This document shows positions 32,891-57,657 of a DNA stretch of 64,000 nt, piece after piece. The translations under genes were made by a program, and so were the position numbers. Under the pieces are notes generated by a model. That model did no database searches. It was given only the letters and a program-made list of their open reading frames with translations, and was not told the DNA's origin. Origin of the DNA: Lophium mytilinum. Lineage: Eukaryota. Where the stretch lies: NCBI GenBank assembly GCA_010093605.1, contig MU004202.1, positions 259,560 to 323,559 of the forward strand, read 5' to 3'. Every line of letters begins with the position of its first letter. Within the stretch, counting starts at the first letter, position 1.

Positions 32891-33041
32891 GGGCGTAGTG
32901 CCAAGCCTGATGACAAGTCCGCGGAAACTCCGCTCGTACCATACAAACACTTTGGAACAGAGCACCTTACCTTACCATATTCTAGCCAACAGCAGTCTCT
33001 AATTCTCTCCTTACCCTCTTTCGCACCCATACTGAACAAAA

Positions 33042-35992: not shown

Positions 35993-37307
35993 GGTTACGA
36001 TGAGTAAGGCTCGCCGTTCTCGAAGTGGAACTTCTTATTCTATTTGATGACAACGAAACTTATATGGACTGCCCGGGTTGAAAAAACAGGTTTCTTTGCC
36101 AAGTGCGGCTGAGCAGCTGAGAAAAAGAAACAGTGTTGGTATTTCCATAAAGTAGTTAGACCTCTGCTTATTCTGAAAAGAGACTCACCACTCCAGAACG
36201 GCTAAGAAGTGCTTCGAGCACTGCTTTCCTAACGTATCGTGAAGTAAGAGAAAAACTTAGCCTTTCATCTCCGCCGTTTGCAAAACATGCACCACTTATG
36301 AGCCTGCTCAGATATATGTATCCAGAAACTTGTGCTAGCTTTCCATAGCTTCAGTTAGCGGTTAATTTTGCAGCGCTTTCACGCATCCTCAAAAAGTTGT
36401 AGTATAGTCCTAGGCCACAAGTCTGGGCACACGGACTCCTTATAGCTCCGCTCAAATGTGCCCACTCAACACCACTGTCCGGGGTAGCCTGGCTGCTGAG
36501 CAGGCAAGTGGTTAAGACGCAGTCTAATCCGCACTGCTTGAAGCTTAGCATCACCTTTAAGTCTTCAAAACCTTGTTGGGGTACCCCAAACAGTGGCGTA
36601 CCAGTGTGGCCAGACTTGTGGCTTGTCACGGTATTTTGCCCGAGGCTTGAAGCGATATATCCGACCTGAGTAAGGCACGTGACTCGCGAGGGACTTTCCT
36701 GGTGGTGTCCTGCAAATAATGCGTAGTGTTCAAATCCATGAATGGCGTACTTAAGAAGCATCGCATCTCCGTTAGAATAATGGTTGTATCAGCTTTGGCC
36801 GCCTAACACGAAAATTGAGTCCGGGCTACTCCGATCTTCCAAACAAGTTTACGCTAGAAATTAGTAGTGCTTTACACTACTATGACTGAATGTACGGGCA
36901 TACTTTCACACTAGATTTGGTATCACGTGCCTGCTTGGTTTTCTCTGGTACGGGTTAGCGTTGGTCGTTATCAATGGCCAATCAAAGGCAGCGGTCATTC
37001 AAATTGAAATTCCCGCTCTCTGCTATAGCAAACCAACATTTGCAATCACCAATTAATAATGAAAGAGGCGAAGCCTGAATTAACTATCTTTGAAAGCAGT
37101 TATCTTTCGAGTGGATTGTGCTGATGCGGTAGCGGAGATTCAGTTTGAATATAACCGCTGCTTATGGAGGATTTGTCTATAAGCATTTCTTATAGCGCTC
37201 AACAGCTCTTATAAAGTCATCCATCTCGGCAACGTTTTAGAGTGTATACTTCTCCTCAGCATCGCATCCTCTTACCTTTCTTTCAACTCCAACAAAAGAT
37301 ACACAAC

Positions 37308-38042: not shown

Positions 38043-39167
38043 CGCGCTAAGTGGCCGACTACAAGGAATAGCAGGCTTGAGCTGGTGCCAGATGCTAGAG
38101 ACCCTCGACTTTCCATTTTTGCGGAGCGGCTGCTCGTGCATTTGACGATAGAGGGCGAAACGGGACGCAGCTTGAGATCACAGGCGATATGCTCTGCACA
38201 TATACGAGAGTAAGGTGATGTAGATCGTTTTTGAAAGGTTTTAAGATTAGCACAATATATAGGGCTTTTCCGTCAGTGCCAAGGCCATACCTCGCGAAGT
38301 TACCTCTGTTGGCATTAGGATAATACAGCAATTGCCCATACCCTTGCATTATTGAAATAGTTGAAGTGATACTGAATCTTTATTATCAACACTATGAAAT
38401 TGGATGACGTTGTCTGGCGTCTTTGCGTTGGGGCTGGGTTTGAAGTCGGGTGACTTGAAGCTGCTTGAGGATAATGAGGAGGAGTAAAATGAAAGGGGAC
38501 AGGGAGTTCTAGATGAGATGCTAGTATGGCGTTTTGGGTGAAGCTGCTAGAGACTGAATTTATCAAATTGTCAAGATTCTGGCATTCCGCCTGATATCAT
38601 CACCAAGCAAGGCTTGCATCATATCAAGCTTTCTACTAGGCCAGCCATTCTCTGGGAAAGCCTTCGCATAGATCCTAGGTAAGATATAGGAGCATGGCAC
38701 GGATGTTTTAGATGGAGTTGATGATATTCGTGGGTTGAGAGATGAATCTTGGAAAAATCGTGATAGTTTGACGTGAGACTAGGGGTCGTAAACTAACTAT
38801 ATCTAGCCTCCACAAGTCACGTGACTGTTAGATCGGGTTTCAACACCAAGGAAATCTTCCGTGCACACCACAGCTCTACGCACGACCACCCAGCGATGCA
38901 ATTATCATCAACTCAAACATCAATCTCCTGTCGCGGCGCATGACCTCTAACGAAACGGGGCGAAGCTAGGCGTAGGGAAGGTTGGCTGTGGAGGTATGCT
39001 GCTATTGTGTAGGATAAGTTACAAGAGGAGCGCGTTTTCTGGCGCGTCCGAGCCATACGCATCTCCAAATGATGAGCATCCTTCATCTCGAATTAATAGA
39101 CTTCGACTATCACTAATAAATTGGTATGTATGACTAGACACTATCCCGTATGTACATAGCTCAGCAA

Positions 39168-40776
39168 TTATGCCGTCGCAGAATCAACTTTTTCCAGATC
39201 CATGCCAAATTTTCTCCGCTTCAACTTCATCATCATTGGGCCTGGGTGCGCATTGACAGTGTCTTTAGTTTCGAGCTCGAATCCTGGCCCAGCCTCAAAT
39301 TCAAAATCATATCGACGCATAAGCGTAGATACGACAACGAGTAGTTCCAGGTAGGAGACGTTGCGACCGACTAGACGCAGGGTCAGTACAATTGCATTGG
39401 AGTTTTGAAGACATGGTTCTAGACTTACTGCAACCCCGACCACCAGCCGAAAAGGGAATAAACACAGATTGCAGCTCCGCCGCATTCTCTTCCAGCCACC
39501 TTTCAGGCCTATACGTCCAGGGATCTTTGAACAAGTCCGCATCGTGATGTAGCGAGTACGTCGGCACGGACACAGTCGTATTACCGGCAATCCACTCCCC
39601 ATCAATTTGCATGCCTTCCTTTGGAGTGACGCGAGGCAGACCGCCCCGGAGCGGCGGGCGCATGCGCATCGCCTCGTCGACGCAGGCGCGGAGGTACGGG
39701 AGGTTTTTCACGCTGTCAAACGCAGGAACGCCATCGAAGTCGTCGCCAAGCGCCATGTCAAGCTCTTCACGCAATTTCTTGGCCGCGTCCGGCCACTTGG
39801 TCAGCAGGAACATGGTGCCGACCAGGACGATGGTCGTGGTGTCAGAGCCGGCGTTGAGCAGCAGCGCGCACTCTGCGACCATTTCGCCTATTTCGAGACC
39901 AAGCGGCCCACCGTCTTTCGTCCAGACGAGTGACTTGAAGAAGTCATTCAGCTCCGCGCCTTGCTGTTCTTTCTCAAGGCGCGTGCGCACCATGTGCAGG
40001 ACGATGGAGTTGAAGTCGGCGCCACCCTTCCAGCCGGGGTGCCACCACGTAAGGCGCTTATTGAGCTGGAAGAGCGAGGGGGCCCAGCCCATCGTCGAGC
40101 CGATTCTCAGGGAGTTGCGGAGTGCGTTCGCAGGTTTTGTCTCGTACTTCGTCCCGTCGAGTTTTTGCGCAACCATCATATCGTCGCCTCGTTCCACGCA
40201 ACCAAGGCTCTGGCTGAAGACAAGATGGCCGGTGAGATCGAAGAGGAGCATGTTGATGTACCAGCGGACATTGATAACTTTGTCGTTCAATATGGCTTCA
40301 TCGAAGCGATTGACTAGCTTTTGAACATCGTCGGATACGAGATACTCCATGTCTGAGACGCGTTTCTGCGCAAACGCGGCAGCCAATCGCTTTCGTTTCT
40401 CCCCGTGGGCCTGACGGTCGGTGGAGTCGAGACTGCTCTCATGCGTGCCGGTGAAAGAGATGTAGAACTTGTCTTTCTGTGCCGCGGTCCCGTGGCCGTA
40501 GATGTCTTTCACGGCCTGGCGAGAGATGAAGGAAAGGTGGTTTGGACCCACACGTACGGCCTTTCCAAGCTTTTGGTGGGCGTCATGCGTTGCAAGCACG
40601 CGGTTGTGGTTGTATTGCTGGTACATCATCCATATGTTTGTGAAGCCAGCGACGCTGGGGGCGGGAAAGCGTCGTAACCTTTTGCGGTCACGGAAGTAAT
40701 TGAACACGGGCCATACAATGACGGCTCCTAGTAGAAGCAGAACCGTTGTCTCCCATAGTGGAATGTGAAATGTCAT
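39168..40776 (-). CDS. Cytochrome P450 monooxygenase (benzoate-4-hydroxylase-like clan, possibly CYP630-like), 2 exons
   Basis: N-terminal TM helix, FPAP, VRVGPNHLS, I-helix AGSDTT, EAMR, PERW; heme motif FSAGGRGC|IG completed across intron 39428-39371. Confidence 0.93.
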
Positions 40777-41556
40777 GTTAAAAGAAGAGATAAAGGGAAA
40801 GTTGAGAAATGGGTATATGAGATATGAATTTGATCGAAGCTGTGGTATGAGAGTGTGTAAACAAAAAACGTTTCTGCTCTGTGCGATCGGTTGGATAATA
40901 GGAGATAAAGCGAAGTCCGAAAGTCTAGAGATATGCTTTAATATCAAAGGCCTGGTATATCGTTCGGGTTAAGGATAGTCAGATGAGCAAAGGCTGGAGG
41001 AGTCTGGCGAGTCCATCATCAGCCGAGGACTTTCACTAAGCTTGCTACAGGGACCTATGAAGACGGCATCTAGTCACTCGGGAAAGATCCAGAAGGCTTC
41101 TCCGCGGTCGGGAAATGTGGGACGACTCTTTTCGATCTGAATTAACATAAAGACCACTTGACACACCAACTGGCTCGACGCGATTTTCCCAATTGGTCTG
41201 TTGGGAAGTGTGCAGCATACGCACCTGTGACGCGATTAGCACAGTGGTCCTCTACGGCGAGTTAAGTTACGTGCGTAGCGTGGGAATAAGCTTCTGTGGG
41301 GATGGGAGTAAGCGATTGCGGGGAAGCACTAGCATTCACTTGAGGACATGGGCGACAACCGGATTTGGAAATTCTCGGCGACGCTTTAGCGTGCCGTCTG
41401 CCTGTGACATCAAATGCATCTTCAACTACTCCATTGCTCCAAATTAAGTCTATCGTGACGAAACATTGCTCAACTGCCGTGAGGGGCTATCATGAGGTAC
41501 TAGACAGTGATTCCAAGCTATCTTCGTTGGGACTTTTCCGCGGCCCTCCCTGCCCT

Positions 41557-41670
41557 CCCTGTCCCCTCTTGCCTTCCCTGTCCCCTCTTGCCTTCCCTGT
41601 CCCCTCTTGCCTTCCCTGTCCCCTCTTGCCTTCCCTGTCCCCTCTTGCCTTCCCTGTCCCTTCTTGTCTC
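41557..41670. repeat. 19-bp minisatellite (CCCTGTCCCCTCTTGCCTT), 5 perfect copies plus 1 degenerate
   Basis: Read directly from the sequence; lies in the P450/ADH divergent intergenic region. Confidence 0.95.
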
Positions 41671-41729
41671 GTTCCTCTATTCCATAATTCCTCCCTTAGA
41701 TTTCTGTTTTCACCATCTCATTATTCATC

Positions 41730-42962
41730 ATGAGAGCATTAACTCGAAGTCCTGCTGCACTAATGCAGTCAATATCTTCGCTACGACCGCGACAATGCTT
41801 CAGTCTCTCGAGGCCCTACCTACCATTCGTCTCCAAGCACCGTGCAACTTCTTCTCATCCAAGGAATCACGCGACGTCTCATAGTTTTCCACAAACCATG
41901 CGTGCCTGCCAGATAATCGAGTACAACAAAACGCACCAAATCCGCCAAATACCCATCCCCTCCACCTCATCCCTCCGCCCCCACGAGCTCCTCCTCAAAA
42001 TCGCCGTCTCCTCTCTCTGCCACTCCGATCTCGAATACCAATCCGGGACCCTATCCAACACGCTGCCCGTCACCGCCTCGCACGAAGGCACCGGCACGGT
42101 CATCGCCGCCGGAAGCGCCGCCACCGCTTTTTCCATCGGCGACCGCATCATGGCGGGCCAGACCTTCGACCGCTGCGGCGAGTGCGACGACTGTCGCGGG
42201 CCGGAGGCTTATCAACACTACTGCAGCCACCAGGGCCCGATGATGAGCACGCAGCGGAATGGCGCGTTCCAGGAGTACCTCGTTGTGGACGCGCGCCAGG
42301 CGACGAGGATTCCGGAGGGGATGAGTTTCTTGACTGCGGCGCCACTGGCGTGTGCGGGAGTGACGGTGTGGAGAGGTATTCTGAATGCGGAGGTGCCGAA
42401 GGGTGGGTGGATTGGGATTGTGGGGAGTGGAGGCGGGTTGGGGCATTTAGGGGTGCAGTTTGCGCGGGCGAGGGGACTGAGGGTTGTGGGTGTTGATGCG
42501 CGGGATGAGGGGTTGGACTTGACAGATCAGGTGGGCGCGGATTTGGTTGTGGACGCCCGATTGGGGAAGGAAGAGGTAGTGAGGCGGGTCATGGAGGCGA
42601 CAGAAGGTAGAGGTGTGGACGGGACGGTGACGCTCAGTGATGCGAAGAGTGCGGCTGCGATGGGCTGCGCGATTACGAGGAAGCATGGGACTATGGTGTA
42701 TATACCTGTGGGACATGCGCTGGAGATTCCTTTTGAGGAGGTCATTTTCAGGGATGTGCGGATCAAGGGGAGCTTTCTTTGTAGTCCAAGAGAGGCGACT
42801 GATATGCTAGAGTGTGTTGTGCAGCACGGCATTAAGGTTCAGAGTACCATTTTTCATGGCCTTGAGGAGGTGCCGAAAGCCGTGGAGCAGTTGAGGGCAG
42901 GGACGTATCAGGGAAAGGGAGTTATCGTTGTTGATGAGGAGGCTGCGAAAGCTGTGCGGTGA
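41730..42962 (+). CDS. Zinc-dependent alcohol dehydrogenase (MDR), intronless; alternative start at 41898
   Basis: LCHSD, SHEGTG, structural Zn CGECDDC...C, APLACAGVT, GSGGGLGHLG. Confidence 0.93.
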   Translation: MRALTRSPAALMQSISSLRPRQCFSLSRPYLPFVSKHRATSSHPRNHATSHSFPQTMRACQIIEYNKTHQIRQIPIPSTSSLRPHELLLKIAVSSLCHSDLEYQSGTLSNTLPVTASHEGTGTVIAAGSAATAFSIGDRIMAGQTFDRCGECDDCRGPEAYQHYCSHQGPMMSTQRNGAFQEYLVVDARQATRIPEGMSFLTAAPLACAGVTVWRGILNAEVPKGGWIGIVGSGGGLGHLGVQFARARGLRVVGVDARDEGLDLTDQVGADLVVDARLGKEEVVRRVMEATEGRGVDGTVTLSDAKSAAAMGCAITRKHGTMVYIPVGHALEIPFEEVIFRDVRIKGSFLCSPREATDMLECVVQHGIKVQSTIFHGLEEVPKAVEQLRAGTYQGKGVIVVDEEAAKAVR

Positions 42963-43077
42963 TGGTAGCATCTCGAGTCAGATAATTCGCGTGTGTTACT
43001 ATAAAGACATTGATAATGATAAAACGTGGTTCAAGGAATTTCGTTGAAAAGATCTCAATGTTACTCCTGTCAACCCC

Positions 43078-45330
43078 TCACCCCCAAACGTCCTCCTGAT
43101 ACCTTGATTCCTTCTTCATTTTGCCTCCAACCGTCTTATCCGCTTCTTCCCTACTGACTCCTCTCTTCTCCGCCAATATGTCTACCAATCTGCTTCTAAC
43201 CTCCCTGGCCATACTCGCCGCCCCACAGATGTAAAATGCAGCCCGTTCATCTTCCACAAGTGTTCCGACTTCGAACCTCCACCTATCCTCAGCAAGCATA
43301 TCCTGCACATAGACCTTGTCTTGTTCTTTTTGCCTCGAGAATGCAGTCACAAGCTGGAAGCTATCTCCCAGCGTTTCTTTCCATGCCTTCCACTCGTCTC
43401 GGTACAGGAAGTCAGTCTTGTCATCTCGACACCCGAAGAATAGTACCATTTTTCCCACAGGCTTGCCTAGCTCGACTAGCCGTGCGCGCTCTTGCACGAA
43501 ACCGCGGAAAGGCGCGATGCCTGTTCCCGCTGCTACCATGACTATGGGTACCGTTTCCCTAATCGGGAGTTTGAAGGTCGAGCGCTTGATGTGCATGTAA
43601 ACTCTACCGCCCAGCAGCTTGCCTCGCGGACCAGCGAGGTCATATTTAGGCCCGCTAGAGATATCCGTGATCTCACTCTCATGGGAACTGATTGGGTTCT
43701 CCGAGGTCGAGCGGAACTCGCGGTCGTGTGCTAGCAGGAAATTGGTCGCTAGGCCGTGGAATCTTTCTTCGTTCTTCGCGCCGTCTAGATTCTCGAGCTG
43801 CTTGCTGTTAACGGCCAAGGTTATAGTTGGCTGTCGAGGGCTCGCTATCGGAGAACTGGAGATGGAATAATAGCGAGGCTGGATCCGACTGAAGGACTCG
43901 ACGAGGAGAGAAAAGGGTATTTTTGACCAGGACCCGGCAGACGAGTTGATCGATTCCAGCACTTTTCCGACTGTGAGGTATTGGCTGGCAACCTGATTGC
44001 GGAAGGCATGCTTGTTTTTTCCGAGTCCAAGTAGTGCAGCAGATGCTTCCTCTGATGGGGCAAATTGGGCAATGAGGATGAGTAGATCTCGAGAGGCAAG
44101 AGCACCAATCTCGAGGTAGTACTTGAGAAGCGTCTCGCGGGTGGTTGGCGAGGGCAAATCGCACTTCCCTTGCTTGCTCTCCACCATGATAGGTTTCTTT
44201 CTCACGTCCTCGTCGAGTCCAAGGGCTCGACACAAGCGCGCTACTTCGTTCTCTGGATTCAGCGGCCAAATGGCAAGATGGTCGCCCGTTTGATATCGGA
44301 TGGAGGGTGCAGCCGAGAGGTCAAATTCCATGTGAGCACAGATACGATTACTGGCCGAGGACAGTATCTTGCTTGTGGCGATGGGTGCAGCGAATGGATT
44401 TCGATCGTTGTAGGCTACCCTTTCCGTGGTTTGCTGAAGCGCTCTCTCGCTGGGCTCGCCCATGTAGATAGTGGGTTCGTCGACGCAGACATCAAGCACA
44501 TGGATTGTAGGTTGGTAGGCAATTGGGCGCTCATCCAGGCTGATGGTTTGGCCGAGAGGCTTGAGCACTTGCTCTTTCCAGTCCATGAAATCCTCCTCTG
44601 TAGTACCTTGGCTTTCATCTGCACGACCCAGAGACCCTATGCGCTTTGCTCCAAGATTACTTAAGATATCGTCAATGACAGTAATGGTTCGGTTATAATA
44701 TTGGTAGTTCCGGTTTCCCATTCCTATCGCAAGATAGCGGAGATCTTCCAAGCTGGTCTCGTTCTTCTTCATCTTCTCTAGCCCCAAGCAGAATTGGGTG
44801 GCATTGTCTGGTGGGTCACCTTCTCCATATGTCGATACGAGGAAGACGGCGAGTTTGTCCTTTGGAAACATAGCAAGATGTTCCGGGTCATAATCTTGAA
44901 GGTCCGCAACTAGAGTTTTGAGGGCAAATCGGGACTGCCATTCCCGAGAAAGCCTTTCTGCGAACGCTTCGGAAACGCCTGATTGGGAGCCCCAGAAAAC
45001 TGCAATATCATTGCCCTTTGAGCCAAGGAGTTAATATGATTCAACGCTTTGAGATTTTTAGTAGGCACTCACAGTTTCCGCCAGCCTTTTTCCGATGTCT
45101 CTTGTGGGTTTAGGCCGTGCTTTCAAGTCCCCCGTTTTCTGAGGGGCTTGGTACCACAGGTATTTGTTTGGGTCCGGCTTTCCCCATAATTTGCCGTCTC
45201 CAGCGTAAAAGACACCGATACTTGCAAGGACGAATACGACAAGCCAGTCTCCAAGTCGCAGTCGGAAAGGGTTGTTGGAGACAGTTTGGAGTACGTGCTG
45301 TAGAGTATGCTGATCAGGAAGGAGCTCCAT
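43078..45330 (-). CDS. NADPH-cytochrome P450 reductase (second/CPR2-type paralog), 2 exons
   Basis: TM anchor, FWGSQSG, STYGEGDPPDN, GNRNY, YQTGDHLAIWP, PRYYSISSS, AGTGIAPFRGF, FFGCR, KVYVQD, YICG, RYQEDVWG. Intron at about 45072-45016. Confidence 0.95.
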
Positions 45331-46305
45331 TATTGTGGAATCAGTGAAGATGTATGATCGGGGAGAGGGTGGAGAGCGCGCATGCACTCGGTAATCTTCT
45401 GCGTTTATCTACACGACCAGTAGTGGGAGTAGAACAGCGATCAGCTCCGCTGATACAATACTCTAGGCGATTCTGCGTCACCAGGTCAACCATTTTTGGA
45501 GAAGCAACGCTACCACACGCTCGCGCAACATGACCCGACATGCAGCACACGAAAGTATCATTACCTCTCCTGCCAGTTTTCGCCTATTCTCGAGCGAAGG
45601 CCCGCAGATGCAACATGCGATTTGCCGTCCCCCGTTCGCCTAATCTTGGGATAGGCTCTGCGCACGTAACATGCGATCTGCCTTTCCGCACGTCGAGTTC
45701 CTAGCTCTTTCTCACCTCTAGATCCGGGAATAACGCTAAGATGCCAAATGTGGCGCTCTTATGGTCGGACCGTGCGAACCCTGGGGCTCGGATCTAGACT
45801 GACGGTCCCTTCCTCTGCGGAGGGTGGCTTGAGGAAGTCGACGAGAAGTACTATTTCGGACACTGTGTTCGGCGAAAGAGTGTGGCAAATCATTCTCCGA
45901 GGACTCTCTAGGGACCTCTCGCCGAATATTCGACGAGTTTGTCCACTTTGGCCACAAGAATCACATACGCGACGCTAGATTAGTTAGTCTCCGCGGAGCT
46001 AGCGGCGAGGGCTTTGGGGAGATGCCCGGTTACGCTTCATGCGACCAGCAGATCGAGAATTTCTCTCCTGCAGCGGACCCTAATGTCTGGGCAAGATACC
46101 CCACGGGGTATTATCCTTGACTGTCATCTAGACCCACGATGTTTCCCACCACTAACACATCAAAGTGTCTATATATTGGGCCTGCAACCTCCCCAAAGAT
46201 CGAATCATCACAGCTACCAAACAGTCGGGATTTTATTCTTGGCCATCTCACAGACAAAACTCTATCGTGCTTGGATCGAGCCGGTCTTACTCTATCTACT
46301 TCATC

Positions 46306-47994
46306 ATGTTCAATATTCAAGGAAGACTCTTGACTATCCTCATCACCGTCGCATGCTCGACCAGTTTCTTGCTGTTCGGATATGACCAAGGCGTTCTCTC
46401 TGGCCTGATCGGCGCCAACAATCAGTTTGGCAAAGATTTCAATCATCCAGATGCCAACACCCAGGGTCTCATTGTTTCAGTTTACCAACTTGGCAATGTT
46501 GGAGGCTCCATCGGCATCTTTCTCGCCGGCGACTATTTTGGAAGAAAGAAATCCATCATCTATGCTACCCTCATCATGCTCGTTGGTGCTATTCTGCAGA
46601 CTGCTTCCGTCAGCACCGGGATGATGTACGCTGCTAGAGTCATAACCGGAATTGTAAGTCCGAACCCTGAACCTCACAAGATTTCGTCATTCTAACATTC
46701 ATAGGGCAACGGAGCAAACACTTCAACAATCCCAGTATGGCAAGCGGAAACCAGCACGGCGAAAGAGCGCGGGAAGCTTGTTGCCATTGACAGCTGCATC
46801 ATCATCTTCGGTATCCTGATCGCATATGTAAGTCACTACTAATTAAAGCTTTGAAGCATGTCACTCACATTCCCCAGTGGATGGATTATGGCTTCGCACA
46901 AGTCTCCGGCCCAGCACAGTGGCGATTCCCTATTGCGTTCCAGATGGTATTCATCTTGATCCTCCTAGCTCTGATGATGTTCCTCCCGGAGACGCCCCGT
47001 TGGCTACACTCAAAGGGTCGCCACGCAGAAGCCGATGCTGTCACCGCCAGGCTTATTGGGACGAACGTACCCGTCACCGACCCACGAGTCCAAGAACTCT
47101 CGAAAGACATCACTAGCGCAATTGAGATCGAATCCGCTGGCGGCCCCTTCAAGATGAAAGAGATCTTCGCCGGCGGCAAGCTCCAAAACTTCCGTCGCAT
47201 GTGTCTTTGCTTCGCTGTCGATGCTTTCCAGCAGCTTGGCGGAATCTGCGTCATCACATACTACCTGCCCAAAGTCTTGTCCGAGTCGGTCGGAATGGAT
47301 CGCCACATGTCGCTCTTGATGGCGGGAATTATCACAACCGAGTACTTCCTGGCATCCATCGTACAGATCTGGCTTGTCAACTACTTCAAGCGCCGGACCT
47401 TACTGTTCCTTTCCAGCGCTGGAGAGATCATCACAATGGTGGTCCTGGCTATTTGCACGCATGATGGCAGCCACAAGGCCGGCATCGTCTCCATCGTGAT
47501 GATCTTCCTTTACAACACTTTCTATGCCTGGGGCTGGCTTACAATTCCTTTCGTCTATCCGGCTGAAATCACTACTTTGCGTATCAGAGCGAAGGGTGCA
47601 GCGGTTGCTTCCTTTGGCGCCTGGATCATCGAGTTTATGGTCGTGCAGATCACCCCTATTGCTGTACAAAATATAGGATATCAAACGTAAGGCTACACCT
47701 TCAGTCTGTTAGTCAATGGATACTGACTCATTTAGCTATATCATCTTTGCCGTCTTGAACGCCGGAATCATCGTTCCAGTTGTGTACTTCTTCTTCCCCG
47801 AGACCGCCGGCATGCGGCTTGAGGACATTGATCACATCTTCGAGCACGGAGGAATCACTGGCGGTGTCATCGGCAAGAACGGCCTGCTCAGGGATAGACG
47901 ACTTGATATTGCAAGGGAGCATCACGAGGAAGTTTTTACCGATCAGAAGGACGGCTCAGACTCCGCGGAGAGGATTGAGTACAGCAAGGTATAA
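46306..47994 (+). CDS. MFS sugar-porter family transporter (STL1-like), 4 exons
   Basis: FLLFGYDQG, GDYFGRK, PVWQAETS...RG, QWRFPIAFQ, PETPRW, QQLGGI..ITYY, YPAEI..LRIRAKG, FFFPETAG. Introns at about 46654-46704, 46828-46878 and 47687-47735. Confidence 0.95.
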
Positions 47995-48310
47995 TATGGG
48001 ATCCACATAGGCGATTTCAATGTGGCGCACAGCCTCATTTCTTGTAAATATTGGAAGCCCATGAAGCAATGGTCATAATTACGTATATAATATTTCCTAC
48101 TACACCACTATTCTCACGATAATTGCCACAGTCGCGAGATCTACAAAAGAGCACTAGACCTACCCCACCCTTATTAGCGTACCCCGCAAACGACGAAACG
48201 GATCATCTCCTCGCCTGCGCCGCCTAAAAGGCAGAAAGGGAAACTCGCCTCTTGCTCTTCCCTTTCAGAACCCGCGCCTATGGACAGGATTTGACTGCGT
48301 CGCGGCGACA

Positions 48311-50743
48311 ATGCCTCGCAACCGATCAGGATGGTAACGACGACACCGCATCCACTCTACCTAGCCGCAGGGCAACTAGCAGCTAATGCATACCGTGTCA
48401 AAACAGCCTCACGTGCCGAGAGAAACACCTGAAGTGCGATGAGGCGAAGCCACTCTGTGCCCGTTGCCGGAAATCGTCTCGCAGATGCACGTGGGATGAT
48501 GTGATAAAGTTCCGCAGCTCGCAAAGGGTTGCGGCTCGAGCAAAGCTTCATGCCTCTGAGGAGAGGAGCAGTGTCGCTACGGTTTTCTCGCCAGATAGCG
48601 AGAATGTCTTTTCTAGGGACCATTGTTGGCTTGAAACACCTTCGAGATGTAAGTTGGAACTTCTCAGGAGATCAGGCTGGTCTTATGACAACGTGCGATA
48701 TTTTAACGCCACAATAGTGAGCTTCGTTGATGAGACGGCTGTTGTATCAGCTCAGTATTTGCATAACCAGGCACTTGAAGACCAGGCACTTGAAGACCAA
48801 GCACTTGAAGACCAAGCACTCGAACATCAGGCCCTCGAAAGTCACGGAAGTGACGCAGTCAATGTTTCCGAAGCTAACGGAACTTGTGATATTACTCTAG
48901 ACACCCATGAGTCCCTCTTCGAGCCTGACTCAGTCGCCTCGCCGCCTCCAGCTGCATTACCCGCTCACCCCGTCTTCCCTGGGAGATCTACTCCTCCTCC
49001 TCCCTCCATTCATACTCGCACAGAATCCTTCGCAATCCCCGACCCCCCTCGTCGGGGATCGTACGTTAGTCCCTACCAAGGAAGCGATTACCTTGCCGGC
49101 TTCAGCCTAAGTCCTGGTTCAGTAGCAAATGTCTTCAGCCCGGGAGCGACTGGCTTCACCCCCGTAGTAACAGGATTGACGCCTGTGTCGCATTCATCCG
49201 AAGACAGTAGACAAGTCGCACCTACGAATGTCAGTGAAACTATCTCTACCGGCGAGAGACATGATGGGGCTTCCCCACAGTACCATCGTTCTCCCATGGT
49301 GCTGGGGGAAAGTGGTGCGTTGCAACTGTACAAAGACCGGATGCCATTACCGTTCAAAGTACCTCAAGAGGCGCTTTTCTTCCACCACTTTCTTGAAAAC
49401 CTGGCAGGCATGGTGCGTACAAAGACTCCCGTAAAACTCATCCGTTATGACTACACTCTCGGTAATGGCTAATATCTTTTGACATACTCGCAGCTTGACA
49501 TGACAGATATCCAACGTCACTTTGCCGTCGATGTTCCGGAACGAGCTCTCAGTTGCCCAGTGTTGCTGGACGCTCTCATGGCATTCGCAGGACGCCATCT
49601 GAGCAGGACTTCAGCTTCTGAATCCGATTCCGCAATCGCTGACCACTACCACTACCACTGCGTGTCGCGCATGATACCAATGTTGAATGAAAAGGAGCTC
49701 GTTGCTGACGAGACACTCTTTGCCGTAAGAGGACTTCTTTCCGCACGAGTGTCACCAAATTCGCTAATTCTTCCAGGCCGCTGTGATTCTGCGAACATAT
49801 GAGGAGACGAACGGTACGCAATCCTAGTTCTAATACAAGAGGAGGCGGCGTGAAGTAGTCAGTGCAGTATAGCTAATACCCAAGCAACTAGAAACGCACA
49901 TGGGCGCAGGCCTAGAACGACATCTGACGGGCACGTCCGTCTTCGCAAACGCACAGCTGGAATTCCACACGTGGGGCGGCCTCGGCCACGCGGCATTTTG
50001 GGTGTTCGTGCGACAAGACATCTACATGTCCCTCCTGAGCCAGCAGCCTCTCAAGGTCGACCTTGCTGGCTGGGAGGAACGGCTGTCGTTCGACCTGGGC
50101 TTCGACCCGACGACGGACTGCACATGGGCCAACCGTATGATCTGGATCGTAGCTGAAATCGTCGGATTCTGTTTTGGAGATAGGAATACTTCGAATTGGG
50201 AATCGGCGCGCGACAAGGTCGAGACGTGGGACCTCAGTCGCCCGAAATCGTTCGATCCTATCCTCTACGTTGAGCGGGATCCGGATGCGAAGCGGTACTT
50301 TCCTGAGATCCGGCTCGGGCATCCATGGCATGGTACGTACATCTTGCCCAGGCGAATATTCAGGGCGTTTCAACAAAGCGGGAAATGCTGATGGAAAACA
50401 CGCAGTCACGGGTATCCAGTACTACTACATGGCCAAACTCCTCCTCGCCACCTGCTACCCCCATGTCCCCAAGATAGGACTCGGGTACCAGCGAGCTCAA
50501 CGCACCATGTGCGATGAGATCCTCCGTAACGCCGAGGCCGTCTGCGGCATTGCGTTCGCCACCTCGCTTCCAGCAGCCCGGTTGACAGCATGCACGGCCA
50601 TAATAGCATGTGGGCCATGGTTTGTGCACCGTCCGCGGGAGGAGCAGGAGCAGGTTTTGGAGCTGTTACGGAGAGCTGAGGCTGAGAGTGCGTATCCGAC
50701 TGGCTCGTTGGCGAGAGGGTTGAGGGAGGAGTGGGAGTGGTAA
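48311..50743 (+). CDS. Zn(II)2Cys6 transcription factor with fungal TF domain (ArcA-like), multi-exon
   Basis: Splicing (about 48334-48406) gives [35 protein letters not shown], a Zn cluster absent from the ORF track; later LDMTD..RHF...VP, AAFWVFVRQDIY and DCTWANR. Confidence 0.9.
48768..48842 (+). repeat. Coding 15-bp tandem repeat, (QALED)x3 + QALEH + QALES, in the TF linker
   Basis: CAGGCACTTGAAGAC and variants, five units. Confidence 0.9.
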
Positions 50744-50751
50744 AGCTTACC

Positions 50752-50836
50752 TACCGAGTCCGCGGAGACGGGCGTCATACATCGACCAACATGGAGGAGT
50801 GATAAAGATTACCGAGGCTGCGGAGACGGGCGTCAT
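50752..50836. promoter_or_regulatory. 27-bp direct repeat rich in CGG/CCG triplets upstream of the M24-like gene; candidate Zn2Cys6 binding sites
   Basis: TACCGAGTCCGCGGAGACGGGCGTCAT (50752) and TACCGAGGCTGCGGAGACGGGCGTCAT (50810). The repeat is seen; the function is inferred. Confidence 0.5.
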
Positions 50837-51126
50837 TAGGGTTTGCTGACCCTGGGGAAGCGGGGGAGACTGTGGGGTAAATGCAGGACTAACGTTAGGC
50901 GAATATGATAGGACTTCCCAAAAAAGAAATACTCGACGGCTCTTAGCCGACAGTAGTGACTGCACGTGTATGTTCTTTCAACTTTCATGGAACTTCTCAG
51001 CATTGATAACCACTTTATTGTCCACTTACCACGTCGAACGTTCCATATACCTTTAAGTTCAAGCCTCGGATTTTTTACTTTGGTTCCCTAGAATCCTCAG
51101 AGAAAACTATAGACAAATCAGCTATT

Positions 51127-52314
51127 ATGAACGGCACGAAAGAAACTAACGGAACCTCTAAGCATGTCATCTCCGAAGAGTCGATACAACCAGAAGAGTT
51201 CCAACAACGCATCGCCACGGTGCGTAAAGCCCTCCAGCCTTCTGGCCTGATCGGCCTCATCGCCTTCGGCGACTGCTGGCGAGGAGCCAACGTGTGCTAC
51301 TTCACCGAGTTCCGTCCTCTAGACGGCGTATCCGACATTGCCAACGCTCTATTCTTCCTTGGCGTCGACTCCCCCCCTATACTTTTCGTCTCGAAGCAAT
51401 GCGTCGACTACGCCTCCGAAGTCACCACATTCGCCGTGCATAGCTTCGACGAGCTGAACGCGCATCTCTCATCCTTCGCCTCCAAGCACAGCGACGGGGT
51501 CCTAGGCCTCGCAGGCGAAGCCTACATCCCAGAAGACCTACACCGCCGCATCAAAGCCACCATCGGCCCTCTCACTCTAACACCCCACCCCATCCTCGCC
51601 GAGATCAAAGCCGTCAAGTCACCCGCAGAAATCGCTCTGATCCGCAAAGCATCCGCGCTCACCGACATCGCCATGATGGCCATCCAAAAGACCCTGTCGG
51701 ACGGCCATCCCCACACGGAACGAGAACTGGCACTCGACGCTGACCGCGCGATGCTCGCCCACGGCGCGGACCGCACCGCCTACGACTCCATGGTGCAAGC
51801 GGGCCCGCGCTCGGCATTCAACCTCGCGCGCCCCACGGACCGCGTCGTGCAGCCCGGCGACCTCGTCATGACGGACATCGGCGCGCGGTACAGGGGCTAT
51901 GTTGCCGACGGCGGCCGCGGCTTCACGTACGGCGCCGCGTCTGAGGAGCGCCGCGCTATCGTGCGGGCTGCAGCTGCTGCCGTTGAAGCAGGGTTAGAGG
52001 CTGCGAGGCCAGGGATCACGTGCGCTGATCTGAATGCGGCCATCCAGGCGGCGCTGGTGGAGTCTGGGTACGAGAAGTACTCTAGTGAGGCGAGGGGCCA
52101 TGGGACGGGACATGGGACGGGGATGGATCCGGAGGAGGAGCAGCCGTGGATTGGGCCGGGGAATCGGACGGTGTTGAGGGAGAATATGGTGTTTACGCTT
52201 AAGGCGACGATTACGGTCCCAGGCGTGGGGGGATTGAGGACGGAGCGGATTGTTAGGTTGACGGCGGATGGGGTGGAGCCTTTGGATGTTTTTCCTATGG
52301 AGTTGTATTGGTAG
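51127..52314 (+). CDS. M24 (creatinase/prolidase pita-bread fold) protein with N-terminal domain and atypical active site, intronless
   Basis: NVCYFT (creatinase_N-like), IKAVKSPAEIALIRKA, TDIGARYRGYVADGGR, GHGTGHGTG, VLRENMVFTLK, GGLRTE. Confidence 0.88.
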   Translation: MNGTKETNGTSKHVISEESIQPEEFQQRIATVRKALQPSGLIGLIAFGDCWRGANVCYFTEFRPLDGVSDIANALFFLGVDSPPILFVSKQCVDYASEVTTFAVHSFDELNAHLSSFASKHSDGVLGLAGEAYIPEDLHRRIKATIGPLTLTPHPILAEIKAVKSPAEIALIRKASALTDIAMMAIQKTLSDGHPHTERELALDADRAMLAHGADRTAYDSMVQAGPRSAFNLARPTDRVVQPGDLVMTDIGARYRGYVADGGRGFTYGAASEERRAIVRAAAAAVEAGLEAARPGITCADLNAAIQAALVESGYEKYSSEARGHGTGHGTGMDPEEEQPWIGPGNRTVLRENMVFTLKATITVPGVGGLRTERIVRLTADGVEPLDVFPMELYW

Positions 52315-52670
52315 GTAATTAGTTGATGTCAGTTATGTTCAGTGTCGTAGTATAAAGGTCTGCAGTAGTACGAAGAAATCATGATGACGCCAATCTTATG
52401 AGCAGCTCGAAGATCTTCTATCGCGCGACTTACTTGGGAGAAAGCAGCCAGCTTAATCGTGAAGAGGGAACAGTCGTTAAAGGCGTGTACCCGAATTACT
52501 TGGTGCTGTTTGAAGCGTTTCATATTCCGTTTATTTTCTCTGTCGTCGTAAGGCAGGGTTCGCCGCTCCTGTACTGGCAAGGTGTTTAGTTCAGGACATA
52601 GCTCAATTGACCTCCTCCTTTGACCTCGGCTGACCTGGCTTGGCTAGACTACCCCTTAAGAAGCTAGAAG

Positions 52671-53076
52671 ACGCAGCTCACCCAACCTGCCCCCTTCACC
52701 TCGGCTGACCTGCTTTGGCAACATCAAGAGCTACCTACCAGGTCAGCTTACCTTTTGGGAAATTGGTTGAGTTATAAAGCCCGCGCCCACACGGCGCTGG
52801 CTTAGGACGGAGTTAACTAAGGCTACGCTTATGTAGGCGACGTATATATGCTGCACATTATCATGTGCCACAGTAATTCCAATGTTGAGGATTCAATCAC
52901 TTAACGCAATGAAACAATGAATCTCACTTCCTCAATAAATAATACTGTGAATAGGTGGGGCAGGTCGGATGAGGTGTCGATGTAGGAGGTAGGAGGTCGG
53001 GTGAGGTGTTGAGAATGTAGATAGCGCGCCGAGGCAGGTCAGCCGAGGTTCATGGGGGAGGTTAGGTAAGCTGCGT
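52671..53076. mobile_element. MITE-like element B, about 405 bp with about 48-bp imperfect TIRs
   Basis: Left end ACGCAGCTCACCCAACCTGCCCCCTTCACCTCGGCTGACCTGC; reverse complement of the right end ACGCAGCTTACCTAACCTCCCCCATGAACCTCGGCTGACCTGC. An extra partial arm lies at about 52620-52640. Confidence 0.7.
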
Positions 53077-53442: not shown

Positions 53443-54278
53443 GGTCGCAAGGGGCTTCAGAATTAAGTCCAGCCCAAGCGAGTCACGTGGTAAAAGAAGG
53501 CGAGTAGCGCATAACTATATGATAGATGCACCGAGGATACAATACCACTATAGTGTGAGTGCTCTGGAGACTATTCACTACTTTTGGTATAAAGCTTGCG
53601 CTATGGAGCTATACGATGGTGCAATGCCACAGTCGGAGCTCTTTCATTTTTGACCAGTCATCACGTGACTGCTTGGGAATGGTTCATTATTATATATGCC
53701 TTGCGTACTCGGCGTCACTACGAATACTGATCAAACAGCAATTTACTTCAGCCGCGTCGCCCTAGTAGAAGGAAGGTAGTGAGTTGAGTATTTGGCCAGC
53801 CCGCCAAACTGCGTGGGGGAGCCTAGGCGCTTTCAGCCTTGCGCTTCCAGCCTTACCAAGACCACGAATCGCGTATCCCAATTGTGCACGACTGCTCACC
53901 GGAACTCATGATGCGACTTTGGCAGAGAAGGGCGTTTGTGAGGTGTCCTAGCCCTACAGCCTCATACGCATCGGCGTATCATGATGCACTATCCGAGGCA
54001 ATCGTTTGCGCTATGACGTCCCTCAACCACACGCTTATTCTATACCATCCCTACTGCCGCAATCTCGCGCAGCCTCACTGGAATTTGTCTGCCTCCCTGG
54101 GTCTGCCTTCGGCACCGCCACCTCCCATCGCACAGTTGATAGCCTGGTAGCCATCCTCGACTGTTCTCACCTACTTCTTTTTCGCTTCAGTGGTCATTGT
54201 TCTCTCCGCTACAGAGGCGACTTTCATGTTTAATCTCGCACGGTTCTCTCTTTTCCTCCCTTCAGCCCCATCAACGAG

Positions 54279-57200: not shown

Positions 57201-57657
57201 GCTGCTAACTAAAGGTGTCAATATAAACGCGCAAAGAGGAGACTACGGCAACGCGCTTCAAGCAGCATCAGTAAATGGCCACTCAGCCGTTGTTGAGCTG
57301 CTAATAAGTAAAGGGGCCGAGGTTAACGCGCAGGGAGGACGCTACGGGAACGCGCTTCAGGCAGCATCGTTTGAGGGTCACTTAGCCAGTGTCGAGCTGC
57401 TGCTGCGCAAAGGGGCCAATGTTAACGTGCAAGGGGGATACTGTGGGAACGCCCTTCAGGCTGCATCAACAAGAGGCCGCTTAGCAGTTGCTAAGCTGCT
57501 GCTAGATAAAGGAGCTGATGTCAACGCACAAGGAGGATGCTACATTAACGCGCTTCAGGCAGCGTTGAACGGAGGCCACTCTATTATTGTCGACCTGCTG
57601 CTAAGTAAAGGCGCTACAAGGTACCTGAGTATCTTAAACCGTTTCTGGGTTACATAA
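54279..57657 (+). CDS. Fungal NLR-like protein HET-NACHT-ankyrin (HET-E-type N-terminus), 3 exons
   Basis: HET: YAILSHTWG, YFWIDTCCID, WFTRGWTLQELIAP, EEDQAYSLLGIF. NACHT: Walker A GIPGCGKT, Walker B LILDALDEC, LVTSR, GMFRWA (spliced), LAHYSVKEYL. Nine ankyrin repeats. Introns at about 55066-55122 and 55904-55958. Confidence 0.95.
56746..57613 (+). repeat. Array of 9 ankyrin repeats (about 99-bp units) with high internal similarity
   Basis: Repeated NALQ(G/A)ASxxGHxxVVELLLxKGAxVNAQGGxYG. Confidence 0.92.

What the first reader, a model, noticed from the sequence alone, without database searches (positions are those of the whole stretch)
39168..52314. Self-contained six-gene cluster without a backbone synthase: P450, Zn-ADH, dedicated CPR, sugar porter, Zn2Cys6 TF and atypical M24-fold enzyme
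Seen: six contiguous genes in 13 kb, arranged as two divergent pairs (P450/ADH and CPR/transporter) followed by the TF and the M24-like gene, with no PKS, NRPS, terpene synthase or DMATS. Known: most fungal P450s use the housekeeping CPR, and second CPR paralogs have been described next to CYP630-type P450s. Importer plus pathway TF plus oxidative enzymes is the usual layout of catabolic clusters. Inference: a pathway that imports a polar compound, hydroxylates it (P450/CPR), oxidises the alcohol (ADH) and cleaves a C-N or similar bond (M24-like). I recognise no characterised cluster with this composition, and backbone-based BGC finders would probably miss it.
Basis: partly seen in the sequence, partly recalled or inferred. 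Interest (0 to 1): 0.82.

Follow-up and report, generated by a model that had tools for sequence, protein, structure and literature searches.

The report
Conserved fungal P450–reductase–hydrolase gene cluster
A six-gene cluster in the fungus Lophium mytilinum pairs a cytochrome P450 and its own reductase with an unusual hydrolase that most likely came from bacteria, and it recurs in other fungi, so it is probably a still-uncharacterised pathway for breaking down some imported compound.

Summary
Six genes lie at 39168-52314 exactly as described, and no backbone synthase was found among the 40 large frames scanned. The 100% protein hits name Lophium mytilinum.

The cluster is conserved. Orthologues of the P450, the reductase (CPR) and the M24 protein carry neighbouring locus tags or accessions in 11 other labelled Eurotiomycete species. 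All three lie within 5-6 tags in three of those species.

- **CPR:** the cluster reductases form their own clade, apart from the other fungal CPRs sampled.
- **M24 enzyme:** it is intronless and 69-74% identical to bacterial proteins. In 7 of 15 bacterial loci examined, those proteins sit in a LysR-M24-MHS transporter module. A Lys replaces one of five expected metal ligands in all 14 aligned sequences. Transfer from bacteria to fungi is the likeliest origin.
- **Possible regulatory site:** the 9-mer CCGCGGAGA occurs four times in the 64 kb window, always in cluster intergenic or gene-end regions.

Still open are the substrate, the reaction order, co-expression, the identity of the genes between the markers in other species, and whether the ADH belongs to the conserved core.

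Best reading: a catabolic or detoxification cluster analogous to, but distinct from, CYP630-CPR2. I found no paper describing it.

The parts
39168..40776 (-). Cytochrome P450, 516 aa. Exon 1 is 40776-39430, the intron about 39372-39429, exon 2 39371-39171, and the stop 39168-39170.
   Evidence: Pfam p450 E 1.5e-50. A 100% match to a protein named cytochrome P450 [Lophium mytilinum]. Motifs AGSDTT309, EAMR368 and FSAGGRGCIG442. The intron has GTAAGT, CTGAC and TAG signals.
41099..41107 (.). Copy 1 of the CCGCGGAGA motif, in the shared P450/ADH promoter, about 320 bp upstream of the P450 ATG.
   Evidence: 4 matches in 64 kb, 0.64 expected, 0 of 100 shuffles reach 4. Sequence context.
41551..41666 (.). 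Tandem repeat of 19 nt, 6.1 copies, in the P450/ADH intergenic region just upstream of the ADH.
   Evidence: 97% matches, score 218.
41898..42962 (+). Yeast-type Zn-dependent alcohol dehydrogenase. An alternative in-frame ATG at 41730 would add an Arg/Ser-rich extension.
   Evidence: Pfam ADH_N and ADH_zinc_N. The nearest solved structures are yeast ADH III and ADH1. Zn-ligand and GxGGxG motifs are visible in the translation.
43078..45330 (-). NADPH-cytochrome P450 reductase paralogue, 731 aa. Exon 1 is 45330-45073, a 57-nt intron 45016-45072, and exon 2 45015-43081.
   Evidence: Pfam Flavodoxin_1, FAD_binding_1 and NAD_binding_1. A 100% match named [Lophium mytilinum]. Exon mapping. Separate clade in the CPR tree.
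45988..45996 (.). Copy 2 of the motif (TCTCCGCGGAG, palindromic), in the shared CPR/MFS promoter.
46306..47994 (+). Sugar-porter-family MFS transporter with at least three exons (frames 46156-46695, 46791-47690, 47713-47994).
   Evidence: Pfam Sugar_tr on all three frames, 198.9 bits on the middle one. NCBIfam TIGR00879 sugar porter, 188 bits against a cutoff of 237.8, on a 299-aa exon.
47963..47971 (.). Copy 3 of the motif (CTCCGCGGAGA), inside the last MFS codons and about 340 bp upstream of the TF ATG.
48311..50743 (+). Zn2Cys6 transcription factor with a Fungal_trans_2 domain. It is multi-exon. Introns 48333-48405 and 48649-48717 are seen as joints in run X1. Further introns near 49.4-49.5, 49.8-49.9 and 50.3-50.4 kb are inferred from frame changes. 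A 15-nt x 4.5 coding repeat lies at 48766-48832.
   Evidence: Pfam Zn_clus and Fungal_trans_2. Joints with GT..AG ends. ATG located. Candidate introns. Repeat.
50760..50768 (.). Copy 4 of the motif (TCCGCGGAGA), between the TF stop and the M24 ATG.
51127..52314 (+). Intronless two-domain M24B-fold hydrolase, 395 aa, of probable bacterial origin. Lys359 stands where the fourth metal ligand (Glu) is expected.
   Evidence: Pfam Peptidase_M24 E 3e-45. 69-74% identity to bacterial proteins. K359, D250, D261, H329 and E373 are invariant in 14 of 14 sequences. Alignment to prolidase 1wy2. AF2 model with pLDDT 80, and Foldseek matches to prolidases, creatinase and DoeA. Tree.
50699..52781 (-). Spliced minus-strand RNA whose 1.4 kb exon (50894-52293) is antisense to the whole M24 coding sequence. 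The skipped stretches are 50700-50750, 50818-50893, 52294-52432 and 52574-52751.
   Evidence: Joints in contigs of run X1 with CT..AC ends on the + strand, which read as GTAAGC/GTTAGT/GTAAGT...CAG/TAG on the - strand. The kind of run is a guess by the tool.
38883..40757 (+). Spliced plus-strand RNA antisense to the P450. It skips 39123-39267 (GTATGT..TAG) and keeps the P450's own intron.
   Evidence: Run X1 record 2 and its joint. Junction letters.

Best explanation
This is one conserved fungal metabolic gene cluster without a backbone synthase. It is most likely catabolic or detoxifying.

The core is a class II P450, a membrane-anchored CPR paralogue that serves it, and an intronless M24B-fold hydrolase acquired from bacteria. 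In Lophium the core is joined by a sugar-porter-family importer, a Zn2Cys6 regulator and a yeast-type Zn-ADH.

Proposed working, all of it inferred:
1. The porter takes up a small compound. It probably bears a carboxylate and contains an amide or amidine.
2. The TF switches on the genes, possibly through the palindromic element TCTCCGCGGAGA found in each promoter region.
3. The P450, supplied with electrons by its own CPR, hydroxylates the compound or one of its parts.
4. The ADH oxidises the new alcohol.
5. The M24 enzyme cleaves a C-N bond hydrolytically. Its dinuclear metal site is altered (Glu to Lys), so the chemistry is probably not ordinary Xaa-Pro peptidase chemistry.

Shown: gene content, conservation of the P450-CPR-M24 linkage, the separate CPR lineage, the bacterial affinity of M24, and its altered ligand set. 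Inferred: substrate class, order of steps, regulation, and the ADH's membership in the conserved core.
For: **Gene content and domains.**

**Linkage in other fungi, by locus tags and accessions.**
- C. chaetospira: P450 H2200_000033, CPR _000034, M24 _000037.
- P. brasilianum: CPR PMG11_02991, P450 _02994, M24 _02996. In a second strain: OOQ89649 (M24), OOQ89651 (P450), OOQ89653 (CPR).
- P. lagena: CPR N7510_006684, P450 _006687, M24 _006689.
- E. xenobiotica: P450 and CPR have adjacent tags in 7 listed tag pairs.
- Pairs 1-4 tags apart in E. bonariae, records labelled E. elasticus/E. sideris, A. hiratsukae, A. turcosus, T. amestolkiae, Penicillium sp. IBT 16267x and P. psychrofluorescens.
- The gene order differs between orders while the linkage is kept.

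**Orthologue conservation.** P450 orthologues are 67-85% identical, while the next relatives are at most 47%.

**CPR lineage.** The 8 cluster CPRs plus one unnamed Logan sequence form a clade with SH-aLRT 100. Its branching follows the species tree.

**M24 origin and context.**
- 69-74% identity to bacterial proteins, and no intron.
- The 24 fungal or presumed fungal rows form one clade (SH-aLRT 99) against 52 bacterial rows. Those bacterial rows include long-branched Acidimicrobiales and Rokubacteria.
- Of 15 bacterial loci examined out of 55, a divergent LysR gene is present in 9, a downstream MHS transporter in 8 and both in 7. One locus has a TRAP transporter instead.

**Importer type.** The transporter is a sugar-porter type, a family made up mainly of importers (the family's role is established knowledge).

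**Motif.** CCGCGGAGA occurs 4 times in 64 kb, all within the cluster, against 0.64 expected.
Against: - I saw no DNA of the other fungal clusters. Adjacency rests on locus-tag and accession numbering, and the genes between the markers are not identified.
- ADH orthologues were not found in the other cluster-bearing species.
- The motif was found post hoc. Some 9-mer is shared by three such regions in 57 of 2000 simulations and 115 of 3000 real triples. No CCGCGG core lies in the 842 and 953 bp upstream of two orthologous P450 genes.
- In bacteria the M24 gene works with only a regulator and a transporter, so it may not need the P450.
- The bacterial MHS transporter and the fungal sugar porter are not close relatives.
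- The tree has no outgroup, so the direction of transfer is inferred rather than shown.
- No substrate or expression evidence exists.
Confidence: 0.55

Rival explanations
1. Two unrelated modules happen to lie side by side. One is a P450/CPR (plus ADH) xenobiotic hydroxylase module. The other is a separate transporter-TF-M24 nutrient-hydrolysis module that copies the bacterial LysR-M24-transporter unit.
For: In bacteria M24 needs only a regulator and a transporter. A four-gene cluster of P450, CPR, TF and sugar porter without M24 or ADH exists in three metagenome contigs. The CYP630-CPR2 system likewise has only a TF and a transporter beside it (PMC4368105, passages read).
Against: P450 and M24 stay within 2-4 tags of each other in 8 labelled species, even though the gene order differs between orders. 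In the Penicillium species and T. amestolkiae the P450 lies closer to M24 than to the CPR.
Confidence: 0.2
2. This is a variant of the CYP630-CPR2 fatty-acid omega-oxidation cluster. The P450 omega-hydroxylates a fatty acid, the ADH oxidises the alcohol, and M24 is a passenger or releases the acid from an N-acyl conjugate.
For: It has the same four-part architecture of P450, CPR paralogue, TF and transporter as described for Grosmannia clavigera (PMC4368105). The ADH fits the second step of omega-oxidation.
Against: The paper reports CYP630-CPR2 in about three quarters of Eurotiales genomes. This P450's orthologues (at least 67% identity) were named in only a few Eurotiales species, and the other named Aspergillus and Penicillium hits listed are 38-43% identical. 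The cluster CPR falls in a different clade from the CPR of the paralogous four-gene cluster. No CYP630 reference sequence was available for a direct test.
Confidence: 0.1
3. It is a small biosynthetic cluster that modifies a primary metabolite without a core synthase, in the manner of the kojic acid cluster (recalled). The transporter would then act as an exporter.
For: There is no backbone gene. The cluster has a TF and an MFS gene. Its distribution is patchy.
Against: The transporter belongs to the sugar-porter (uptake) family, not the drug/H+ antiporter type. The M24 relatives sit in bacterial uptake-and-regulator modules. A dedicated CPR is known from a substrate-induced catabolic system.
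Confidence: 0.1

Closest known systems
CYP630B18-CPR2 cluster of Grosmannia clavigera (oleic acid omega-hydroxylase; PMC4368105, passages read)
   Same: [quoted passage not shown] It is a catabolic or detoxifying cluster, not a biosynthetic one, and it is conserved in Pezizomycotina.
   Different: Here an M24 hydrolase is part of the conserved linkage, and Lophium adds an ADH. The orthologue distribution is much narrower. The CPR falls in a different clade from the CPR of the four-gene paralogous cluster. CYP family membership could not be tested.
Prolidase / Xaa-Pro dipeptidase, M24B (for example Pyrococcus horikoshii 1wy2)
   Same: It has the same two-domain fold: Foldseek TM 0.73-0.81, E 2e-27, and sequence E 5e-38. 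Four of the five metal-ligand positions are kept.
   Different: The fourth ligand Glu is Lys (TLKAT against TIEPG), and the following Pro-Gly is Ala-Thr. Both changes are invariant across fungi and bacteria. All NCBIfam scores lie far below the cutoffs, for example PepQ 142 against 630.
Non-peptidase M24 enzymes: creatinase, ectoine hydrolase DoeA, DMSP lyase DddP
   Same: The fold is the same (TM 0.69-0.78). These enzymes act on small non-peptide molecules, and their genes sit in catabolic contexts.
   Different: Sequence similarity is weak: E 3e-9 to creatinase and 1e-8 to DoeA. DoeA NCBIfam models score 55-60 against cutoffs of 575-613.
Bacterial LysR-M24-MHS transporter module (uncharacterised; Paraburkholderia, Caballeronia, Sinomonas and others)
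   Same: The enzyme is orthologous at 69-74% identity and has the same Lys. The logic of regulator plus importer plus hydrolase is the same.
   Different: The fungal regulator (Zn2Cys6) and transporter (sugar porter) are unrelated to the bacterial ones. No P450, CPR or ADH was seen beside the bacterial genes examined.

Membership tests
CYP630-CPR2-type P450/CPR cluster | A P450 gene next to a CPR paralogue | tested here: met
   They are one gene apart in the window. Their tags are adjacent in E. xenobiotica, C. chaetospira and records labelled E. elasticus.
CYP630-CPR2-type P450/CPR cluster | The P450 belongs to family CYP630 (more than 40% identity to CYP630 members) | not testable with these tools
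   No CYP630 reference sequence could be obtained. Indirectly, the narrow orthologue distribution does not fit the reported presence in three quarters of Eurotiales.
CYP630-CPR2-type P450/CPR cluster | [quoted passage not shown] | tested here: met
   The Sugar_tr MFS and the Zn2Cys6 TF lie directly beside the CPR.
CYP630-CPR2-type P450/CPR cluster | Induction by fatty acids and oleate omega-hydroxylase activity | not testable with these tools
   This needs expression data and an enzyme assay.
M24B Xaa-Pro dipeptidase (prolidase) | Pita-bread catalytic domain plus a creatinase/prolidase N-terminal domain | tested here: met
   Pfam Peptidase_M24. Creatinase_N is detected in relatives. The model matches prolidases over both domains.
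M24B Xaa-Pro dipeptidase (prolidase) | Five metal ligands Asp, Asp, His, Glu, Glu (ligand identities recalled) | tested here: not met
   D250, D261, H329 and E373 are kept. The fourth position is K359 in 14 of 14 sequences.
M24B Xaa-Pro dipeptidase (prolidase) | Score above the curated family cutoff | tested here: not met
   NCBIfam PepQ scores 142.5 against 630, and YpdF-type aminopeptidase 119.8 against 393.
NADPH-cytochrome P450 reductase | FMN, FAD and NADPH domains with an N-terminal membrane anchor | tested here: met
   Three Pfam domains. The hydrophobic stretch LGDWLVVFVLASIGVFYAG lies in exon 1.
Fungal catabolic gene cluster | An importer, a pathway-specific TF and enzymes whose linkage is conserved across species | tested here: inconclusive
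   Linkage of three of the six genes is shown through locus tags. The identity of the genes between them in other species, co-regulation and the substrate are not shown.
Secondary-metabolite biosynthetic gene cluster | A backbone enzyme (PKS, NRPS, terpene synthase or DMATS) | tested here: not met
   None among the 40 frames scanned.
Gene acquired from bacteria | Closest relatives are bacterial, the fungal copies form one clade of narrow range, there are no introns, and the gene is embedded among native genes | tested here: met
   plus the single frame. Flanking genes have introns. GC3 is like that of the neighbours, so the transfer is old. The direction rests on breadth and branch lengths, because the tree is unrooted.

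The most novel reading that the evidence does not exclude
This is an inter-kingdom chimeric pathway. An ancestor of Dothideomycetes and Eurotiomycetes captured the enzyme of a bacterial LysR-M24-transporter catabolic module. It wired that enzyme to a P450 served by a third, so far undescribed lineage of fungal CPR paralogues. The M24 enzyme, with Lys in place of a metal-binding Glu, would represent a new non-peptidase catalytic type acting on a small molecule not yet known to be degraded this way. Spliced antisense RNAs over both end genes would keep the cluster silent until it is induced.
Probability: 0.3. Interest if true: 0.75.

Novelty: new variant of a known kind. Interest (0 to 1): 0.6.

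Why it matters
Backbone-based cluster finders miss fungal clusters without a core synthase, and few catabolic ones are characterised.

- **A concrete candidate.** This one is conserved across two fungal classes, and there is a list of genomes in which it can be tested.
- **CPR paralogues.** It adds a second example, apart from CYP630-CPR2, of a P450 with its own reductase. That bears on why fungi keep several CPR paralogues.
- **An easier route to the substrate.** The M24 enzyme belongs to a tightly conserved family (about 70% identity between kingdoms) with an altered metal site and no known substrate. The simple bacterial three-gene module could reveal that substrate through growth or fitness screens. 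The result would then explain the fungal cluster.

Tried and rejected
- **Own genome.** No genome is held for this window (error), so the housekeeping CPR of Lophium could not be sought.
- **Earlier findings.** Nothing was found by place or by sequence.
- **Sequencing runs.** No RNA holder is listed on record. One run of guessed kind was laid. The ADH, the CPR and most of the MFS gene had no cover, which is no evidence on expression.
- **Metagenome scan with the P450 alignment.** Only 3 orthologous loci were returned. Two are cut at the P450. The third (L056) has none of the other five genes in the 5.7 kb on the side away from the cluster, so it is uninformative.
- **Duplication check.** The second M24 frame (33036-33761) is 26% identical to the cluster M24, and the second MDR dehydrogenase (30212-31132) is 23% identical to the ADH. 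They are unrelated genes, not a duplicated cluster.
- **ADH orthologues.** None were identified in the other cluster-bearing species. The library is clustered at 50% identity, so this is not proof of absence.
- **ESM Atlas.** The P450 and the transporter gave only generic names.
- **Motif conservation.** No CCGCGG core lies upstream of the orthologous P450 genes in L057 and L058.
- **Transporter homology.** The bacterial MHS transporter and the fungal porter show no meaningful similarity.
- **Literature.** Six searches, one of them for six locus tags, found no paper on this cluster or on the bacterial module. Supplements were not searched.
- **Complex prediction.** It was not used, because a P450 with its reductase is a textbook pair.


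Full report
**1. Observation**

- **P450 (-).** Two exons, 516 aa.
- **Zn-ADH (+).**
- **CPR (-).** It has flavodoxin, FAD and NADPH domains.
- **Sugar-porter MFS (+).** Three coding frames.
- **Zn2Cys6 / Fungal_trans_2 TF (+).**
- **Peptidase_M24 protein (+).** A single 395-aa frame.

The P450 and CPR frames are 100% identical to proteins named from Lophium mytilinum on a 607,964-bp contig. Mapping those proteins back onto the window gives exact exons. The P450 carries AGSDTT, EAMR and FSAGGRGCIG motifs, and its intron has canonical signals.

I scanned 40 frames against Pfam, including every large frame in the window. None matched a PKS, NRPS, terpene synthase or DMATS family. The flanks hold an SDR gene (ATG 37308, ending at 38042), a HET-domain gene (34034-36034) and a HET/NACHT/ankyrin gene (54234-57657).

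**2. Conservation of the linkage**

No fungal genome DNA could be read here. However, three protein searches and one cluster look-up returned NCBI locus tags and accessions.

All three markers lie within 5-6 consecutive tags in three species:
- *Cladophialophora chaetospira*: P450 H2200_000033, CPR _000034, M24 _000037.
- *Penicillium brasilianum*: CPR PMG11_02991, P450 _02994, M24 _02996. A second strain has OOQ89649, OOQ89651 and OOQ89653.
- *P. lagena*: CPR N7510_006684, P450 _006687, M24 _006689.

Pairs of markers lie 1-4 tags apart in these:
- *Exophiala xenobiotica*: 7 listed P450/CPR tag pairs, all adjacent.
- *E. bonariae*: P450 and M24.
- Records labelled *Elasticomyces elasticus* / *E. 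sideris*: CPR and P450.
- *Aspergillus hiratsukae* and *A. turcosus*: P450 and CPR.
- *Talaromyces amestolkiae*, *Penicillium* sp. IBT 16267x and *P. psychrofluorescens*: M24 and P450.

That makes 11 labelled species besides Lophium. This is indirect support.

Gene order differs between Lophium, Chaetothyriales and Eurotiales, yet the linkage persists. That argues for selection on clustering.

P450 orthologues are 67-85% identical, and the next relatives are at most 47%. CPR orthologues are 56-60% identical. A second group follows at 45-48%, and the remaining fungal CPRs listed are at 40-44%.

Caveats: tag adjacency is only a proxy for physical adjacency, and the genes in the intervening slots are unknown.

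**3. The CPR**

I built a tree of 40 CPRs (quick method). The selection was 8 cluster CPRs including the window's, 6 second-tier hits, 25 generic hits and 1 CPR from locus L059.

- The 8 cluster CPRs plus one unnamed Logan sequence form a clade with SH-aLRT 100.
- Inside that clade, Chaetothyriales and Eurotiales each form a clade, and Lophium lies outside both. This matches the species tree and is compatible with old vertical descent followed by many losses.
- The clade is sister to a second paralogue group (for example *E. xenobiotica* LTS15_004293). Together they are sister to a short-branched clade that resembles a housekeeping CPR.
- The CPR of the paralogous cluster described in section 6 falls in the other large clade.

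My labels of these clades as housekeeping or CPR2-like are inferred from tree shape. They are not based on reference sequences.

**4. The M24 enzyme**

*Similarity to bacteria.* The 120 best relatives are all at least 69% identical. They include Paraburkholderia, Burkholderiales and Acetobacteraceae proteins at 71-74%. A scan of bacterial genomes gave 55 loci.

*Active-site residues.* In a 14-sequence fungal and bacterial alignment, D250, D261, H329 and E373 are invariant. So is K359, which aligns with the Glu of the prolidase motif TIEPG. That these positions are the metal ligands is recalled knowledge.

*Family scores.* No NCBIfam model comes near its cutoff.

*Structure.* An AlphaFold2 model has mean pLDDT 80.3. 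It matches prolidases, creatinase and ectoine hydrolase DoeA at TM 0.7-0.8. So the fold is M24B, but the site is atypical.

*Tree.* I built a tree of 76 rows. They comprised 50 of the 55 bacterial loci (those with an alignment of at least 340 aa), 9 named fungal proteins, 16 unnamed proteins and the window.
- All named fungal rows, 14 unnamed rows and the window fall on one side of a branch with SH-aLRT 99.
- The 52 rows on the other side include two unnamed rows among the bacteria.
- Acidimicrobiales and Rokubacteria sit on stems of 0.57 and 0.40. The fungal stem is only 0.17.

*Direction of transfer.* The gene has no intron, a narrow fungal range and a bacterial range spanning four phyla. 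Transfer from bacteria to fungi is therefore the most economical reading. The tree is unrooted, so the direction is inferred. GC3 (74%) is like that of neighbouring genes, which suggests the event is old.

**5. Bacterial context**

I examined 15 of the 55 loci. Some frames were dropped to fit size limits.

| Feature next to the M24 gene | Loci |
|---|---|
| Divergent LysR gene | 9 of 15 |
| MFS gene directly downstream | 8 of 15 |
| Both LysR and MFS | 7 of 15 |
| TRAP transporter instead of MFS | 1 of 15 |

- The two MFS proteins scanned (L002, L040) belong to the metabolite/H+ symporter family and are nearest to the shikimate transporter model. The L002 LysR protein is nearest to PcaQ. All scores are below the cutoffs.
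- The three Rokubacteria/Methylomirabilota loci instead have a 2-hydroxyacid dehydrogenase directly upstream. A nitrile hydratase lies downstream in one. An OYE-type flavoenzyme lies upstream in two. A sarcosine-oxidase-like gene lies in one.

The transporter types suggest a substrate bearing a carboxylate. The three-gene module suggests that one hydrolytic step yields ordinary metabolites.

**6. Relation to known systems**

The CYP630B18-CPR2 pair of *Grosmannia clavigera* is an oleate omega-hydroxylase, and a TF and a transporter beside it are co-induced. It is reported in about 30% of 204 Pezizomycotina genomes and in three quarters of Eurotiales (PMC4368105, passages read).

Three metagenome contigs (L059, L061, L063) carry a four-gene cluster of sugar porter, TF, CPR and P450. 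Its proteins are 30-39% identical to those of the window. This may be the CYP630-CPR2 system, but I could not test that.

The window's cluster shares this architecture. It differs in its narrow orthologue distribution, in its CPR clade and in the linked M24 gene.

**7. Regulation**

*Candidate TF site.* Looking for k-mers shared by the three enzyme promoters gave one 9-mer, CCGCGGAGA.
- It occurs 4 times in the 64 kb window against 0.64 expected. No shuffle out of 100 reaches 4.
- All four copies lie in the cluster: in the P450/ADH promoter, in the CPR/MFS promoter, about 340 bp upstream of the TF start, and between the TF and M24.
- The sites fit a palindrome TCTCCGCGGAGA. It resembles yeast Pdr1/Pdr3 elements, which is a recalled comparison.
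- Because the search was post hoc, I ran controls. Some 9-mer is shared in 57 of 2000 Markov simulations and in 115 of 3000 real non-overlapping triples.
- No CCGCGG core lies upstream of two orthologous P450 genes.

So this is a candidate TF site with modest support.

*Transcripts.* One public run of guessed kind holds contigs that skip stretches bounded by GT..AG, so it behaves as RNA.
- It confirms two TF introns.
- It shows spliced RNAs antisense to the P450 gene (plus strand, with the P450's own intron retained).
- It also shows a spliced RNA antisense to the whole M24 gene (minus strand, four introns).

**8. Verdict**

The reading as one conserved cluster without a backbone synthase is supported for the P450-CPR-M24 core. 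It is plausible but untested for the TF and the transporter, and open for the ADH.

The most likely function is uptake and oxidative-hydrolytic breakdown of an unknown small compound. The substrate and the order of steps are not known.

Six literature searches found no description of this cluster.

It is a new variant of a known kind. The bacterial-derived, altered-site M24 enzyme and the separate CPR lineage are its most interesting features.

Noticed in passing
window 50699-52781 (-) and 38883-40757 (+): Contigs of run X1 show spliced RNAs antisense to the whole M24 gene (four minus-strand introns) and to the P450 gene (one plus-strand intron, with the P450's own intron unspliced). They may be regulatory antisense transcripts, or read-through from neighbouring genes.
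   Followed up: partly
L059 1-11569, L061 and L063 (metagenome contigs): A paralogous four-gene cluster of sugar porter, TF, intronless CPR and intronless P450. Its proteins are 30-39% identical to the window's. It has no ADH or M24 gene, and it may be the CYP630-CPR2 type.
   Followed up: partly
window 33036-33761 (+): A second, short M24-domain frame (241 aa, catalytic domain only). It is 26% identical to the cluster enzyme and is unrelated to the cluster.
   Followed up: partly
window 34034-36034 (-), 54234-57657 (+), 60415-63998 (-): HET-domain, HET/NACHT/ankyrin and further ankyrin-repeat genes lie on both sides of the cluster. That is typical of variable, accessory regions of fungal genomes.
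   Followed up: no
window 41551-41666 and 48766-48832: A 19-nt x 6.1 tandem repeat lies in the P450/ADH intergenic region. A 15-nt x 4.5 coding repeat (QALED pentapeptide repeats) lies in the TF.
   Followed up: no
window 41730-41897 (+): An in-frame upstream ATG would give the ADH an Arg/Ser-rich extension of about 56 aa that looks like a mitochondrial presequence. The nearest solved structure is a mitochondrial yeast ADH III.
   Followed up: no
protein P0429 (Fonsecaea multimorphosa Z520_07424, 836 aa): The M24 orthologue is annotated as fused to an alpha/beta-hydrolase (BD-FAE) domain. A second record of the same species has them as separate genes, so this is probably a merged gene model of two neighbours.
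   Followed up: partly
L042 11204-12588, L042/L044/L047 upstream of the M24 gene: In Rokubacteria-type genomes the M24 orthologue follows a 2-hydroxyacid dehydrogenase. In one case it precedes nitrile hydratase alpha and beta subunits, which hints at an amidase-like role.
   Followed up: partly
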